From: Escherichia coli
GTDB taxonomy: Bacteria; Pseudomonadota; Gammaproteobacteria; Enterobacterales; Enterobacteriaceae
Length of the DNA stretch: 64,000 nucleotides
NCBI RefSeq assembly: GCF_030013205.1
Contig: NZ_CP122648.1
Reading direction: 5' to 3' (one strand)
A model generated the notes under the pieces. The model was not told where the DNA came from and did no database searches. It saw only the letters and a program-made list of their open reading frames with translations. The position numbers and the translations under genes are program-made. Below are positions 1 to 58,060 of the stretch, piece by piece. Position 1 is the first letter of the stretch. Every line of letters begins with the position of its first letter.

Positions 1-38
1 GTTCAACACTTCAGCTATTTGTAAGGTTGTAATAGCAG

Positions 39-70
39 GTAGATGCCTGAATCTCTATTCAGGCATCTAC
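39..70. repeat. perfect 14-bp inverted repeat (stem-loop) upstream of the transporter gene
   Basis: gtagatgcctgaat-ctct-attcaggcatctac read directly; U-rich stretch follows on + strand. Confidence 0.5.
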
Positions 71-115
71 TTCTCCTGATTCTGATTTATCGCCGTGCAC
101 CTGATGGAGGAAAAA

Positions 116-1396
116 ATGAAGAAAATAAGTTTAACCACGATGATTCTTTTGGCGCTGGTACTTGGAATGATTATCGGCGTAGTGCTCAATAACACTGCTT
201 CACCGGAAACCGCAAAACTCTATGCGCAAGAAATATCGATATTCACGACGATTTTCTTACGACTGATAAAAATGATTATCGCTCCGTTAGTGGTCTCTAC
301 CCTGGTGGTAGGTATAGCTAAAATGGGCGATGCCAAAGCCCTTGGTCGTATTTTTTCTAAAACACTCTTTTTATTTATTTGCGCCTCATTGCTGTCAATT
401 GCCTTAGGCTTGATAACAGTAAATTTCTTCATGCCAGGCACAGGAATTAATTTTGTTGCACACGGAGCCGAAACCACCGGAGTGGTCGCGTCAGAACCCT
501 TTACGCTAAAAGTATTTATTTCGCATGCTTTCCCCACCAGCATTGTCGATGCCATGGCGCACAATGAAATTTTGCAAATCGTGGTGTTCTCAATTTTCCT
601 CGGCTGTAGCCTGACGGCGATTGGCGAGAAAGGCAGCGCCATCGTTCACGCCTTAGATTCACTGGCACATGCCATGTTAAAGCTCACTGGCTACGTCATG
701 CTCTTCGCTCCCCTGACCGTATTCGCTGCTATTTCAGCATTGATTGCTGAACGAGGACTGGCAGTTATGGTGAGCGCCGGGATCTTTATGGGTGAATTTT
801 ATTTCACCATGTTATTACTTTGGGTGCTGCTTATCGGTCTGGCCATCGTTTATGTTGGCCCCTGCATCAGACGCCTGACCCGCGCCCTTTCGGAACCCGC
901 CCTGCTGGCATTTACCACATCCAGTTCTGAAGCGGCTTTTCCGGGAACGCTTGAAAAACTGGAGCAATTTGGCGTTTCCCCAAAAATTGCCAGTTTTGTC
1001 TTACCCATTGGCTACTCATTTAATCTCGTTGGATCAATGGCCTACTGCTCCTTCGCCACAGTTTTCATCGCCCAGGCCTGCAATATCCATTTATCCATCG
1101 GTGAGCAAATCACCATGCTGTTGATCCTGATGTTGACCTCGAAAGGAATGGCTGGCGTACCACGCGCCTCAATGGTGGTTATCGCCGCCACGCTCAACCA
1201 GTTCAATATTCCGGAAGCGGGGCTGATCTTGCTGATGGGCGTTGATCCGTTCCTTGATATGGGGCGTTCAGCGACAAACGTCATGAGCAACGCAATGGGC
1301 GCTGCGATGGTGAGTCGGTGGGAAGGCGAACATTTCGGCGAGGGCTGTCGGGGTAAAGCATTAAAACCCAATGAATCGAACGTTGCTCTGCCCTGA
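116..1396 (+). CDS. dicarboxylate/amino acid:cation symporter (DAACS, DctA/GltP-like)
   Basis: ORF track 95..1396; GGAGG 5 nt upstream of ATG at 116; polytopic hydrophobic protein with serine-rich SSSEAAFPG motif typical of DctA/GltP family. Confidence 0.85.
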   Translation: MKKISLTTMILLALVLGMIIGVVLNNTASPETAKLYAQEISIFTTIFLRLIKMIIAPLVVSTLVVGIAKMGDAKALGRIFSKTLFLFICASLLSIALGLITVNFFMPGTGINFVAHGAETTGVVASEPFTLKVFISHAFPTSIVDAMAHNEILQIVVFSIFLGCSLTAIGEKGSAIVHALDSLAHAMLKLTGYVMLFAPLTVFAAISALIAERGLAVMVSAGIFMGEFYFTMLLLWVLLIGLAIVYVGPCIRRLTRALSEPALLAFTTSSSEAAFPGTLEKLEQFGVSPKIASFVLPIGYSFNLVGSMAYCSFATVFIAQACNIHLSIGEQITMLLILMLTSKGMAGVPRASMVVIAATLNQFNIPEAGLILLMGVDPFLDMGRSATNVMSNAMGAAMVSRWEGEHFGEGCRGKALKPNESNVALP

Positions 1397-1503
1397 GGGG
1401 GATCTTAAGCAATCAGAAGCCAATGACTACGCATTTTTATAAGCCGGATCATGAAGTTAGACGGCAATTAAGTAAAACTAACGTTTAAGGTGAAAAGTGA
1501 AAT

Positions 1504-3156
1504 ATGTCCAAACCATTTATCTGGCAAGAACCGTTTCTACAAAATAAAGACGGTACAGAATATACATTAATTAGCGATCAACATATTACAGTAACGGAAT
1601 TAGACGGCGAAGAAGTAATAAAAATCGCTCCTGAAGCATTAACGCTGCTTGCCCGGCAGGCATTTTATGAAGCCTCTTTTTTCTTACGTTCCGCTCATTT
1701 GCAACAGGTCGCCAGCATTCTTAACGATCCGCAGGCCAGTAGTAATGATAAATACGTTGCGTTGCAGTTATTACGTAATGCTGAAGTCTCAGCAAAAGGG
1801 GTATTACCCAACTGTCAGGATACCGGCACCGCAACTATTGTTGCCAGTAAAGGGCAACAGATATGGACTGGAGGTAACGACGCCAAAGCCTTAAGCAAAG
1901 GCATTTACACCACTTTTCAGGAAAATAATCTGCGCTTTTCACAAAATGCGCCGCTGGATATGTATACCGAAGTCAATACGCAAACCAATCTCCCGGCGCA
2001 GATTGATATCAGCGCTGTCGCTGGTGATGAGTACCATTTTCTCTGTGTTAATAAAGGGGGCGGCTCTGCCAATAAAGCCGCGCTTTATCAGGAAACCAAA
2101 TCCTTATTGCAACCAGAAAAACTGACCGCATTTTTAATCGAAAAAATGAAATCGCTGGGCACCGCTGCCTGCCCGCCTTACCACATCGCCTTTGTCGTCG
2201 GAGGGCTTTCAGCCGATCAAACCTTAAAAGTTGCCAAGCTGGCTTCTACGAAATATTACGACAATTTGCCCACCAGCGGAAACGAGCAGGGACAAGCATT
2301 CCGTGATATTGAGCTGGAAAAAGTGTTGCTCGAGGCCAGTCAGCAATTTGGTATTGGTGCGCAATTTGGGGGTAAATATTTCGCTCATGATATTCGCGTC
2401 ATTCGTCTGCCGCGTCACGGTGGCTCTTGCCCGATAGCTATGGCGCTCTCCTGTTCTGCCGATCGCAATATCAAAGCAAAAATTAACAAGCACGGTATCT
2501 GGCTGGAAAAACTCGAACACAATCCGGGGCAATATATTCCAGCCTCACTGCGGGAAGAAAATCACGCGCAACATGTACAACTGGATCTAAACCGTCCGTT
2601 GCGTGACGTGATGCAGGATCTCGCCAGATTACCGGTAGGCACCCGCGTGTCGTTAAGTGGTCCCATCGTAGTGGCACGCGATATCGCCCACGCCAAAATA
2701 AAAGCGCGGCTGGATAACGCCGAACCGATGCCGGATTACCTGAAGCATCATATTGTCTATTACGCTGGCCCGGCGAAAACACCGGAGAACATGGCCTGCG
2801 GTTCACTGGGTCCAACCACGGGCGGTCGAATGGACGGTTATGTCGATACCTTCCAGGCGGCTGGCGGCAGTCTGGTGATGTTATCGAAAGGTAACCGCAG
2901 CCAGCAGGTCACCGATGCCTGTCACAAACATGGTGGCTTCAATCTGGGTAGTATTGGCGGTGCAGCTGCGTTACTGGCGCAAGAATATGTCAAAAGTCTG
3001 CGTTGCCTGGAATACCCGGAGCTGGGTATGGAAGCGGTGTGGATGATGGAAGTGGAAAATCTGCCCGCATTCATCCTGGTAGATGATAAAGGCAATAATT
3101 TCTTTAGTCAGTTTGAGCAGCAACACCGCTGCGCCAGTTGCCCTGCGGGACATTAA
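1504..3156 (+). CDS. class I (Fe-S) fumarate hydratase family paralog; candidate mesaconase/fumarase
   Basis: 550 aa, colinear with remembered FumA/FumB along the whole length ([36 protein letters not shown] motifs); divergent enough to be a third paralog. Confidence 0.85.
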
Positions 3157-3165
3157 GGAAAATGA

Positions 3166-3768
3166 ATGGAAGCGCGAATTTCAACTGAACGGCATGTGCA
3201 GCGCCAGCAGAAATTGAAGGAACAGGTCGATACGCGCGTCGCGGCGGCGATAGAGAAAAAAGGGATTTTGATTGTTTTCACCGGCAATGGCAAAGGGAAA
3301 TCCACTGCCGCGTTTGGTACTGTGACGCGCGCGGTGGGTCATGGCAAAACGGTGGGGGTTGCGCAGTACATCAAGGGGCAATGGGACAACGGCGAATACA
3401 ACCTTCTCCAGCCGCTGGGGGTTGAGTTTCATATTATGGGAACCGGTTTTACCTGGGAGACACAGAACCGGCAAGCGGATATCGACGCGGCGAAAGAGGT
3501 CTGGTCGGAAAGCAAACGGATGCTGGCTGACAAGCGTTACGACTTAGTGGTGCTTGATGAGCTGACCTATATGCTGGCTTACCATTATCTGGACACCGAA
3601 GAAGTGATCGCTTCTCTGCAAAACCGCCCGGCACAACAAAGTGTCATTGTCACCGGACGCGGTTGCCACAGTCAGATATTAAAAATGGCGGATACGGTCA
3701 GCGAAATCCGCCCCGTCAAACATGCTTTTGATAACGGCATTCAGGCGCAGCCGGGTATCGACTGGTAA
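3166..3768 (+). CDS. cob(I)alamin adenosyltransferase, CobA/BtuR family
   Basis: 200 aa; P-loop FTGNGKGKSTAAFG and overall similarity to remembered BtuR; 9 bp after the fumarase-like gene. Confidence 0.8.
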   Translation: MEARISTERHVQRQQKLKEQVDTRVAAAIEKKGILIVFTGNGKGKSTAAFGTVTRAVGHGKTVGVAQYIKGQWDNGEYNLLQPLGVEFHIMGTGFTWETQNRQADIDAAKEVWSESKRMLADKRYDLVVLDELTYMLAYHYLDTEEVIASLQNRPAQQSVIVTGRGCHSQILKMADTVSEIRPVKHAFDNGIQAQPGIDW

Positions 3769-3801
3769 TAACTGCGCCTGGCATCCCGCCAGGCGCAGGT
3801 T

Positions 3802-4707
3802 TTACATCTCCTGCGGTACGACCGATTTCGCCAGCAACCATTCACGAAATTGCTGCAAGTGCGGCGAGTCAGACTTCTCTTCCTGCCACGTCATAATAAA
3901 ACGATTACCGGTACGAATAGGCACATCACAGGGAATCACCATATCGCCACTATCCAAATCATGTTGAATAGCGAACCGTGGTAACAGCGCCACGCCGAGA
4001 TTAGAGCGCACGGCGGCAATCAGCATTGAAAGCAAATCGAAACGTGGTCCGTTATTGACCAGCGGACTGCTAACGCCAGATAAAGCAAACCACTCTTCCC
4101 AGCCAGTAATACGGGTGCTTTGATGCAGAAGTGGTAACTCAGTAAGCAGTTCTGCCACTGACAGTTTTTGATCGGACATTGCAAGCAAACTGCCGCTGCA
4201 TACCGGCAAAATCTCCTCATCAAAGAGATATTCTACTTCCGCCCAGGGCGCGCAAAAATTTTCGCGCATAATGACAGCATCGTACTCCCGATTAAGAAAA
4301 TCGCCGTTATTAGCTAAAGAATGAATATTAACAATAATATCGGGATGTAACTTTGTGAATTCATGTAAATTTGGGATTAACCAGTGGGTACTAAAAGTAG
4401 GATTAACGGCAAGTTCAATAACCTGAACCGTAGGCTGCCAGGTCATAATGGTATTGGTATCGCGTTCCAGCTTATTTAATGTTTCTTTTACTATCCCCAG
4501 GTAATACTTCCCTGCATCATTAAGAAAAATACGTTTTTTAGAGTGTGAAAATAACGGAGTATGTAAAAATTCCTCCAGCGCACTCACTTGTCTGAATACA
4601 GCACTTTGGGTTAACGCTAACTCCTCTGCCGCTCTGGTATAACTTTCATGACGTGCGACGACCTCAAAAGTCACCAGCAGCTCCGTTTTAGGTATTTTTC
4701 CTCGCAT
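3802..4707 (-). CDS. LysR-type transcriptional regulator
   Basis: 301 aa; N-terminal HTH ...YTRAAEELALTQSAVFRQV...; convergent with the upstream 3-gene cluster. Confidence 0.85.
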   Translation of the reverse strand: MRGKIPKTELLVTFEVVARHESYTRAAEELALTQSAVFRQVSALEEFLHTPLFSHSKKRIFLNDAGKYYLGIVKETLNKLERDTNTIMTWQPTVQVIELAVNPTFSTHWLIPNLHEFTKLHPDIIVNIHSLANNGDFLNREYDAVIMRENFCAPWAEVEYLFDEEILPVCSGSLLAMSDQKLSVAELLTELPLLHQSTRITGWEEWFALSGVSSPLVNNGPRFDLLSMLIAAVRSNLGVALLPRFAIQHDLDSGDMVIPCDVPIRTGNRFIMTWQEEKSDSPHLQQFREWLLAKSVVPQEM

Positions 4708-5272
4708 AATGCCGTCCCTTAAAAATAGTTTAAACCATCAAAAATACATTACTTATTACGAAGTAATGGTAACCAAAGCAGCAATAAATAATTTATAAGA
4801 ATCATGATTGACATTTATAACCCAGTAAGCCTAGCGTGACAAATATCTTAATCAGATAATAATAATCCGAAAAGCACAGCGCCTTTCGAATTATCCGGAA
4901 TCACATTAAGTGAAAATTATTAAATTGATATCATTTATCATATCTGTGGATATTATGATAAACAATCAACAAAGATTTTATTTTTGATTTATAGCATATC
5001 CCTCTAAGAATTTTTGCGATGCTGCAATATCCGGGTAAAGACCCGATCCTGGCTGACAAATGGCACGACTTGACGATAAGCGGTGAACATCGCTTTTGTT
5101 GATTTACTTAACGCTACGGTCAAACGCTGGGAAGCCAGTGCATCAGGTAACGATTCGAAATTCGCCGTCGTTCTTATTCGTGGCTTGCGGTCGGTTGCGG
5201 CAATCCACAGTGGCTGTGGTCATGCAGTCAAGCCAGCGGTCAGATTTCGACCGTGGTTAACATTTAAGGCAT

Positions 5273-5371
5273 AAAAAAGGCCATCATACGATGGCCAACC
5301 ATGTCGAAACCGACAGCCCTTCGCCATTCCTGTAGAGGGAAGCGGCGAGGGCTATTTCTTATTACAGATAT
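5273..5371 (-). ncRNA. sdhX: sucD 3'UTR ending in intrinsic terminator; candidate SdhX-type 3'UTR-derived sRNA
   Basis: about 100 nt between sucD stop and hairpin ggccatc-ata-cgatggcc (5279-5296) followed by U-run on minus strand; SdhX occupies this position in K-12 (memory). Confidence 0.35.
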
Positions 5372-6241
5372 TTATTTCAGAACAGTTTTCAGTGCTTCAC
5401 CGATATCCGCCAGGCTGCGAACGGTTTTCACGCCTGCGGCTTCCAGAGCAGCGAATTTCTCATCCGCAGTCCCTTTCCCACCGGCAATGATGGCACCCGC
5501 GTGGCCCATACGTTTGCCTTTCGGCGCAGTTACACCAGCGATGTAACCTACAACTGGCTTGGTAACGTGCTCTTTGATGTACGCAGCCGCTTCTTCTTCA
5601 GCACTACCGCCGATCTCACCGATCATCACGATCGCTTCGGTCTGCGGATCTTTTTCGAACATTTCGAGGATGTCGATAAAGTTAGAGCCAGGGATCGGGT
5701 CGCCGCCGATACCAACACAGGTCGACTGACCGAAACCGTAATCCGTGGTCTGTTTAACCGCTTCATAGGTCAGTGTACCGGAACGGGAAACGATACCCAC
5801 TTTACCCGGTTTGTGAATGTGACCAGGCTGGATACCGATTTTGCATTCACCCGGAGTGATAACGCCTGGGCAGTTCGGGCCGATCATGCGAACGCCCGCT
5901 TCATCCAGTTTCACCTTCACGGTCAGCATATCCAGCGTCGGGATGCCTTCAGTGATGGTGATAATCAGTTTGATGCCTGCATCGATAGCTTCCAGAATGG
6001 AGTCTTTGCAGAACGGTGCTGGTACGTAGATAACAGAAGCGGTAGCGCCAGTAGCAGCAACAGCTTCACGCACGGTGTTGAACACCGGCAGGCCGAGGTG
6101 GGTGGTGCCGCCTTTACCTGGGGTTACACCGCCAACCATTTTAGTGCCGTATGCAATGGCTTGTTCAGAGTGGAAAGTCCCCTGGCTACCGGTAAAGCCC
6201 TGGCAGATAACCTTGGTGTTTTTATCAATTAAAATGGACAT
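5372..6241 (-). CDS. sucD: succinyl-CoA synthetase alpha subunit
   Basis: 289 aa, recognisable SucD sequence; stop/start overlap with sucC. Confidence 0.97.
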
Positions 6242-57359: not shown

Positions 57360-58060
57360 CCGGCATAGCCGGAGGTTTTTCAAATGCGCCTATAAGGCTC
57401 TCTTACCAGCCGCGCCCTAACAGGCGCACACGATCTGACATTTGCATCCAACTTCGTTACTTACGGCCCGTAAACGGGCTGCCCGGATAGGGAATCGATA
57501 ACTGCTCTCCCATTTTATCCTCTTCAAGCTGGTGCTTTATGTAATCCTGTATCTTCGCCGTGTTCTTACCCACCGTATCGACGTAGTACCCTCTGCACCA
57601 GAACTCTCTGTTCCTGTATTTGAATTTCAAATCACCAAACTGCTCGTAAAGCATCAGACTGCTTTTCCCTTTCAGATATCCCATAAAGCCGGATACGCTC
57701 ATTTTGGGCGGGATCTCCACAAGCATATGGATATGATCTGCACAGCATTCAGCTTCAAGAATCCGTACGCTTTTCCACTCACACAGCTTTCTCAAAATAC
57801 TGCCTATTGCTCTACGCTTCTCTCTGTAGAACACTTGTCTTCGGTATTTTGGCGCAAAAACTATGTGATATTTACAGTTCCATCGGGTGTGCGCTAAGCT
57901 CTTTTCGTTCCCCATTGGGACCCCCTTTTGATTTCTTGTTTGACACTTGCAGTTGCCAGACCGCAAGGTGTTTTAACAAATCAAAAGGGGTTTTAATAAC
58001 TGGCTCAAAGCTGAAAGCTTTCCGGAACCCCCAGCCTAGCTGGGGGTTTTCTGTGCACAA
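57360..58060 (-). mobile_element. IS200 (IS200/IS605 family)
   Basis: Y1 transposase ORF; perfect hairpin cccccagc-cta-gctggggg at 58028-58046 near the tnpA-proximal end; span estimated from canonical about 0.7-kb length. Confidence 0.8.
57457..57915 (-). CDS. tnpA: IS200 transposase TnpA (HUH/Y1)
   Basis: ORF track 57457..57966; start MGNEKSLAHTRWNCKYHIVFAPKYRR (152 aa); HIHMLVEIPP HuH motif. Confidence 0.93.
   Translation of the reverse strand: MGNEKSLAHTRWNCKYHIVFAPKYRRQVFYREKRRAIGSILRKLCEWKSVRILEAECCADHIHMLVEIPPKMSVSGFMGYLKGKSSLMLYEQFGDLKFKYRNREFWCRGYYVDTVGKNTAKIQDYIKHQLEEDKMGEQLSIPYPGSPFTGRK

What the first reader, a model, noticed from the sequence alone, without database searches (positions are those of the whole stretch)
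5273..5371. sucD 3'UTR with a strong terminator is retained although the downstream neighbourhood differs from K-12
The 100 nt after the sucD stop end in a clean hairpin plus U-run. In K-12 this position gives rise to the sRNA SdhX. Whether the body of the sRNA is the same here I cannot verify from memory.
Basis: partly seen in the sequence, partly recalled or inferred. Interest (0 to 1): 0.25.

Follow-up and report, generated by a model that had tools for sequence, protein, structure and literature searches.

The report
Known sRNA SdhX after sucD
The stretch after the sucD stop codon is the already well-studied E. coli small regulatory RNA SdhX, base-for-base identical to the K-12 copy up to the end of its terminator, so it is an ordinary, known feature sitting next to a known variable gene island.

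Summary
sucD lies on the minus strand (5372..6241). The 99 nt after its stop (5371→5273, minus strand) match K-12 sdhX (b4764) at every position. The only difference within the 101-nt K-12 annotation is position 100, the first base after the U-run. All described functional parts are present: the seed UUCGACAUGGU, the E. coli-specific G62 (fdoG) and C34 (katG) positions, the GUUU at the 5' end of the 38-nt form, a 7-bp GC-rich terminator hairpin and U6. Similarity to K-12 stops exactly at the end of the U-run. Here mngRAB is replaced by the published FumD/methylaspartate (glutamate fermentation) island, an arrangement shared by about 15% of complete E. coli genomes, including O157:H7. sdhX itself is present in 5424 of 5426 genomes. 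The ackA target site is essentially invariant in E. coli and pairs with the seed across the start codon. Rfam has no SdhX model and PGAP leaves it unannotated, which is why it looks unlabelled. Nothing here is new. The minor side observations are that the sdhX terminator is the fixed edge of a four-allele replacement region, that an rtcB-family gene remnant abuts it, and that one strain has IS1 inside the seed.

The parts
5372..6241 (-). sucD coding sequence, the last gene of sdhCDAB-sucABCD and the parental mRNA of the sRNA
   Evidence: 289-aa ORF. Annotated as sucD in identical strains.
5273..5371 (-). SdhX (RybD) long form: the sucD 3' UTR from the first base after the stop to the last U of the terminator. 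The K-12 annotation of 101 nt would be 5271..5371.
   Evidence: 99/99 identical to K-12 b4764. Present in 5424 of 5426 complete E. coli genomes.
5315..5353 (-). Upstream hairpin of the variable 5' part (UTR positions 19-57). It contains the CUUCCCUCU stretch with C34 (window 5338) that pairs with the katG Shine-Dalgarno in E. coli.
   Evidence: Fold. C34 confirmed. Role of C34 taken from PMC6393394.
5273..5310 (-). Equivalent of the 38-nt short form (SdhX2): GUUUCGACAUGGUU followed by the terminator. The RNase E processing site is inferred to lie next to G62/UUU (window 5310..5307).
   Evidence: Sequence, fold. The 38-nt form and the UUU processing site come from PMC6393394. The exact cleavage position in E. 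coli is inferred, not shown here.
5298..5308 (-). Conserved seed UUCGACAUGGU (UTR positions 64-74). G62 (window 5310), needed for fdoG repression, lies just upstream.
   Evidence: Exact match. Seed defined in PMC6393394. It forms 10 contiguous pairs with ackA -2..+8, at -15.3 kcal/mol against a background of -8.0 ± 2.2.
5279..5296 (-). Rho-independent terminator stem-loop GGCCAUC-GUAU-GAUGGCC
   Evidence: E. coli variants differ only at the first loop base.
5273..5278 (-). U6 run: the transcript's 3' end and the expected Hfq-binding tail
   Evidence: 3'-terminal uridine contacts with Hfq are reported in PMC6393394.
5174..5272 (+). Not part of the sRNA. This is a decayed remnant of the 3' end of a convergent rtcB-family gene (5233-5272 and 5174-5230, with an internal deletion). 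It starts where similarity to K-12 stops.
   Evidence: blastn against strain 806883-9-2019, where the intact rtcB stop codon overlaps the sdhX U-run.
3802..4707 (-). Not part of the sRNA. This is the first intact downstream gene, the LysR-type regulator of the FumD/methylaspartate island, running in the same direction as sucD.
   Evidence: Island described in PMC4682846.

Best explanation
This is sdhX, the gene segment for the Hfq-dependent small RNA SdhX (formerly RybD). It has no promoter of its own. It is transcribed as the 3' end of the roughly 10-kb sdhCDAB-sucABCD mRNA, ends at the hairpin plus U6 terminator, and is released by RNase E as a roughly 101-nt form and then a 38-nt form. The single-stranded seed UUCGACAUGGU pairs across the ackA start codon and blocks translation of acetate kinase, which ties acetate/acetyl-phosphate metabolism to TCA-cycle operon expression. 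In E. coli, G62 and the C34 region additionally repress fdoG and katG. What is shown here: sequence identity to the K-12 sRNA, the structure, the position, and the presence and complementarity of the ackA site across E. coli. What is inferred from published K-12 and Salmonella experiments: the processing, the Hfq binding and the repression in this particular strain.
For: The window is 99/99 identical to the annotated K-12 sdhX, starting at the base after the sucD stop. The seed, G62, C34 and GUUU are all present. There is a terminator hairpin plus U6, and the seed is unpaired in the 38-nt form. The element is found in 5424 of 5426 complete E. coli genomes, 4225 of them at ≥99% identity. The ackA -80..+60 region is ≥99% identical to K-12 in 5399 of 5424 genomes. 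The seed-ackA duplex is 10 contiguous pairs over the start codon at -15.3 kcal/mol, beyond the 1st percentile (-14.2) of 2054 pseudo-start sites, and only 4 of 1000 seed shuffles match it. Biogenesis, seed, targets and the 38-nt form are documented in PMC6393394, the review PMC9438474, and by Hfq-CLASH recovery of SdhX-ackA and SdhX-katG in PMC7213987.
Against: There are no expression, processing or Hfq-binding data for this strain or for any strain with this downstream arrangement; my literature search for SdhX in EHEC found nothing specific. The base right after the U-run differs (A instead of G) and the convergent mngR gene is absent, so terminator efficiency or read-through could differ slightly. 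The ackA, fdoG and katG sites were not read from this strain's own genome; only the species-wide conservation of ackA was checked. De Mets et al. 2019, the primary E. coli paper, is not held in the library.
Confidence: 0.95

Rival explanations
1. It is only the transcription terminator of the suc operon. In this strain the 3' fragment is not a working regulator, for example because it is not stably released or not bound by Hfq.
For: The hairpin plus U-run would end the operon transcript in any case. No strain-specific RNA data were available.
Against: Every base of the validated K-12 sRNA is the same, and the ackA target site is invariant in E. coli. Processing and Hfq binding depend on the RNA sequence and on core proteins. 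The sequence is kept nearly unchanged in 5424 genomes across four different downstream contexts.
Confidence: 0.03
2. The sRNA is made from its own promoter inside the 3' end of sucD rather than by processing of the operon mRNA.
For: Two weak promoter-like sites lie on the minus strand inside sucD (6167-6138 and 5817-5790, 9 of 12 matches each).
Against: The number of promoter-like sites is at the chance level (5 found, 4.0 expected), and both lie more than 400 nt upstream of the UTR. PMC6393394 reports no transcription start site or conserved promoter, and loss of both SdhX species when RNase E is inactivated.
Confidence: 0.02
3. The hairpin is a leftover of, or shared with, the convergent gene (rtcB-family here, mngR in K-12) and serves as its terminator on the plus strand.
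For: The stop codon of the intact rtcB-family gene overlaps the U-run in another strain, and its remnant abuts the hairpin here. In K-12 the mngR stop lies 2 nt from sdhX.
Against: On the plus strand the hairpin is followed by AACCATG, not a T-run, so it is not an intrinsic terminator in that direction. The hairpin is kept where there is no convergent gene at all, as in this window, and in all four downstream alleles.
Confidence: 0.02

Closest known systems
SdhX (RybD) of E. coli K-12, ncRNA b4764, NC_000913.3 765050..765150
   Same: Same position directly after the sucD stop. Positions 1-99 are identical, including the katG-pairing region (C34), G62, the seed, the terminator hairpin and U6.
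   Different: Position 100 is A instead of G, and everything beyond differs. K-12 has the convergent mngR gene 2 nt away. The window has an rtcB-gene remnant and, 565 nt further on, a co-directional LysR-type gene.
SdhX of Salmonella Typhimurium (SdhX1 87 nt, SdhX2 38 nt), PMC6393394
   Same: Same parental operon, the same seed UUCGACAUGGU just before the terminator, the same conserved ackA target, and RNase E-dependent release.
   Different: According to the paper, Salmonella has U where E. coli and the window have G62, lacks the katG-pairing region, and targets fumB and yfbV instead of fdoG and katG. The window carries the E. coli version.
Other 3' UTR-derived, RNase E-processed Hfq sRNAs (CpxQ, SroC, NarS, MalH)
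   Same: Same general design: a seed just upstream of the parental mRNA's own Rho-independent terminator, with release by RNase E (review PMC9438474).
   Different: Different parental genes, seeds and targets, and no sequence relation.

Membership tests
SdhX (RybD) sRNA | Lies immediately 3' of the sucD stop codon at the end of sdhCDAB-sucABCD | tested here: met
   The sdhB-sucA-sucB-sucC-sucD order is on the minus strand and the UTR starts at 5371.
SdhX (RybD) sRNA | Conserved seed UUCGACAUGGU directly upstream of the terminator stem-loop | tested here: met
   Exact match at UTR positions 64-74, window 5308..5298. Seed as defined in PMC6393394.
SdhX (RybD) sRNA | Rho-independent terminator (GC-rich hairpin plus U-run) forming the 3' end and Hfq-binding tail | tested here: met
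   7-bp stem with 5 G-C pairs, a 4-nt loop and U6. Hfq binding itself was not tested.
SdhX (RybD) sRNA | Sequence identity to the experimentally characterised E. coli RNA, including G62 (fdoG) and C34 (katG) | tested here: met
   99/99 identical to b4764, with C at position 34 and G at position 62. Roles of these bases.
SdhX (RybD) sRNA | Seed complementarity to the ackA translation initiation region | tested here: met
   10 contiguous pairs over ackA -2..+8 at -15.3 kcal/mol, beyond the 1st percentile of the background. The ackA region is ≥99% identical to K-12 in 5399 of 5424 E. coli genomes. The strain's own ackA was not read.
SdhX (RybD) sRNA | Release from the operon mRNA by RNase E into ~101-nt and 38-nt species, and association with Hfq | not testable with these tools
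   Only the sequence at the processing site (G62-UUU) could be compared, and it is identical to K-12. Experiments are reported in PMC6393394.
Rfam-curated sRNA family | Match to a covariance model at the gathering score | tested here: not met
   No Rfam 15 family matches the locus even at E ≤ 10, apart from a chance terminator-only hit to isrD (17 bits, E = 1.5). Rfam appears to have no SdhX model, so this says nothing against membership.

The most novel reading that the evidence does not exclude
The 3' end of sdhX is the fixed left edge of a recombination hot spot between sucD and cydA that carries at least four alternative cassettes in E. coli: mngRAB, an rtcB remnant plus the FumD/methylaspartate island, a TPR gene, and an intact rtcB plus hut genes. 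Homology between alleles ends 0-3 nt after the last U, and the rtcB remnant shows that cassettes replaced one another in series. Under this reading, selection on the sRNA's terminator and Hfq tail sets where exchange can end. In the window's allele the next gene is co-directional, so terminator read-through could couple expression of the island's LysR regulator to TCA-operon transcription.
Probability: 0.25. Interest if true: 0.25.

Novelty: already known. Interest (0 to 1): 0.08.

Why it matters
It matters little as a discovery. SdhX has been characterised since 2018-2019, and the neighbouring FumD/methylaspartate island was described in 2015. The practical value is for annotation. PGAP-annotated genomes and Rfam do not label sdhX, so the sRNA looks like unannotated intergenic sequence in thousands of E. 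coli genomes. This check shows it can be transferred safely from K-12, including in pathogenic lineages (porcine ETEC/O139:H1, O157:H7) whose downstream genes differ.

Tried and rejected
1. Rfam at the gathering score on the whole window, and at E ≤ 10 on 4700-5700, found no SdhX family and only chance-level hits.
2. I tested whether the retained sRNA might target its new neighbours, because Salmonella SdhX represses the class I fumarase fumB and the island encodes the class I fumarase FumD. Seed duplexes with the start regions were fumD -8.4, LTTR -7.9, symporter -7.8 and cobO -11.8 kcal/mol. All lie within the background (-8.0 ± 2.2; 5th percentile -11.9), against -15.3 for ackA. Rejected.
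3. An own promoter for sdhX: promoter-like sites are at the chance level and far upstream.
4. A bidirectional terminator: there is no T-run on the plus-strand side.
5. De Mets et al. 2019 (PNAS) could not be read by DOI or PMC id. A literature search for SdhX in EHEC/O157 and one for a described sucD-mngR-cydA hot spot returned nothing specific.
6. I ran no further search on cross-species conservation. It is already published for eight enterobacterial species (Fig. 1A of PMC6393394) and would not change the verdict.

Full report
**What is there**

The window carries sdhB-sucA-sucB-sucC-sucD on the minus strand, and sucD is 5372..6241 with its stop at 5374..5372. The reported interval 5273..5371, read on the minus strand, is therefore the sucD 3' UTR. 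It ends in the hairpin GGCCAUC-GUAU-GAUGGCC (5296→5279) followed by six U (5278→5273).

- The 101-nt stretch folds at -41.3 kcal/mol, against -25 ± 3.5 for dinucleotide shuffles (z = -4.67).
- The last 38 nt fold as a 14-nt single-stranded 5' part plus the terminator hairpin.
- The generic terminator scan is not significant by itself (5 sites against 3.2 expected).

Its significance comes from the comparison below, not from the scan.

**Identity with K-12 sdhX**

The K-12 MG1655 record annotates the ncRNA sdhX (b4764) at 765050..765150, the 101 nt directly after sucD. The convergent mngR stop codon lies 2 nt further on. In the alignment, the window is identical to K-12 through the end of sucD and through sdhX positions 1-99. 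The single difference is position 100 (G in K-12, A here), the first base after the U-run, and the sequences are unrelated beyond that point.

All elements described for the E. coli RNA are present:

- the seed UUCGACAUGGU (UTR positions 64-74, window 5308..5298);
- G62, required for fdoG repression;
- C34, in the katG-pairing stretch;
- GUUU at the start of the 38-nt form (definitions from PMC6393394).

**How it works (published knowledge applied to an identical sequence)**

SdhX is an Hfq-dependent sRNA with no promoter of its own. It is cut by RNase E from the 3' end of the ~10-kb sdhCDAB-sucABCD mRNA into a long and a 38-nt form. Through its seed it represses translation of ackA, and in E. 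coli also fdoG and katG (PMC6393394; review PMC9438474; Hfq-CLASH PMC7213987).

I tested the one step that can be tested in silico:

- The ackA -80..+60 region is ≥99% identical to K-12 in 5399 of 5424 complete E. coli genomes.
- The window's seed forms 10 contiguous pairs over ackA -2..+8 at -15.3 kcal/mol.
- That is beyond the 1st percentile (-14.2) of 2054 pseudo-start sites, whose mean is -8.0 ± 2.2.

Processing, Hfq binding and repression in this strain are inferred, not shown.

**The neighbourhood**

The window is 100% identical over 25 kb to porcine ETEC and O139:H1 strains. Between sucD and cydA these strains lack mngRAB. Reading from cydA towards sucD they carry two hypothetical genes, glmS-glmL-glmE, methylaspartate ammonia-lyase, an AtuA-family gene, DUF4387, a dicarboxylate symporter, a class I fumarate hydratase, cobO and a LysR-type regulator. 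This is the FumD/methylaspartate glutamate-fermentation cluster described by Kronen and Berg in O157:H7 and other enterobacteria (PMC4682846). The different neighbourhood is therefore real, but it is also already known.

**Population view**

sdhX is found in 5424 of 5426 complete E. coli genomes, 4225 of them at ≥99% identity. PGAP annotates nothing under it, and Rfam 15 has no model that matches it.

I searched with 229-nt probes that span the terminator and about 200 nt beyond it. Counting genomes covered at ≥80% gives:

| Downstream allele | Genomes |
|---|---|
| K-12 mngR junction | 3883 |
| Window junction | 834 |
| TPR-gene junction (F11, Nissle) | 547 |
| Intact rtcB-family gene next to sdhX | about 160 (994 minus 834) |

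The total is about 5424. In an alignment of all alleles, homology ends 0-3 nt after the last U. The few sdhX differences between alleles lie in the upstream hairpin and the first loop base of the terminator, not in the seed or the stems.

**Remnant next to the sRNA**

Window 5233-5272 and 5174-5230 match two pieces of the 3' end of the rtcB-family gene of strain 806883-9-2019 (97.6% and 91% identity). In that strain the gene's stop codon overlaps the sdhX U-run. The window allele therefore seems to derive from an rtcB-type allele by replacement or deletion that left the sRNA untouched.

**Rivals**

- A terminator with no regulatory role is unlikely, given full identity to a validated regulator and conservation across four contexts.
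- An own promoter is not supported.
- A plus-strand terminator function is excluded, because there is no T-run on that side.
- The idea that the sRNA might regulate its new neighbours, notably fumD by analogy with Salmonella fumB, found no above-background complementarity.

**Verdict**

This is a correct, careful observation of an already known sRNA next to an already known island. Its value is for annotation transfer only. The most that remains open is whether the sRNA's 3' end defines the boundary of a replacement hot spot, and whether read-through reaches the co-directional LysR gene.

Noticed in passing
window 57925-58048 (-): This is the only Rfam gathering-score hit in the window: STnc490 Hfq-binding RNA (146 bits). 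In the identical strain ETEC1748 it lies at the 5' end of an IS200C tnpA inserted between glnS and chiP, so it is the IS200 leader region and not a chromosomal sRNA gene.
   Followed up: partly
window 5174-5272 (+): Two fragments (5233-5272 and 5174-5230) of the 3' end of an rtcB-family gene abut the sdhX terminator. In strain 806883-9-2019 the intact gene's stop codon overlaps the sdhX U-run.
   Followed up: yes
window 1-5272, continuing beyond the window start; L003, L009: The sucD-cydA interval is multi-allelic in E. coli: mngRAB in 3883 genomes, the FumD/methylaspartate island with an rtcB remnant in 834, a TPR gene in 547, and intact rtcB plus hutU in about 160. All alleles break within 0-3 nt of the sdhX U-run.
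   Followed up: partly
L005 4122-4930 (E. coli FDAARGOS_944, NZ_CP065613.1): An IS1 is inserted inside the sdhX seed with a 9-bp target duplication, TCGACATGG (UTR positions 65-73). It separates the suc operon from the seed and terminator, making this a natural sdhX disruption.
   Followed up: partly
window 4708-5173: This is an AT-rich, roughly 465-nt spacer between the rtcB remnant and the LysR-type gene. PGAP annotates nothing there. It contains a plus-strand terminator-like hairpin at 5078-5095 and weak chance-level Rfam hits (RsaOG, MicX).
   Followed up: no
E. coli collection: Two matches to sdhX and the sucD 3' end lie on records labelled as plasmids, and one of the 5426 genomes has no match at all.
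   Followed up: no
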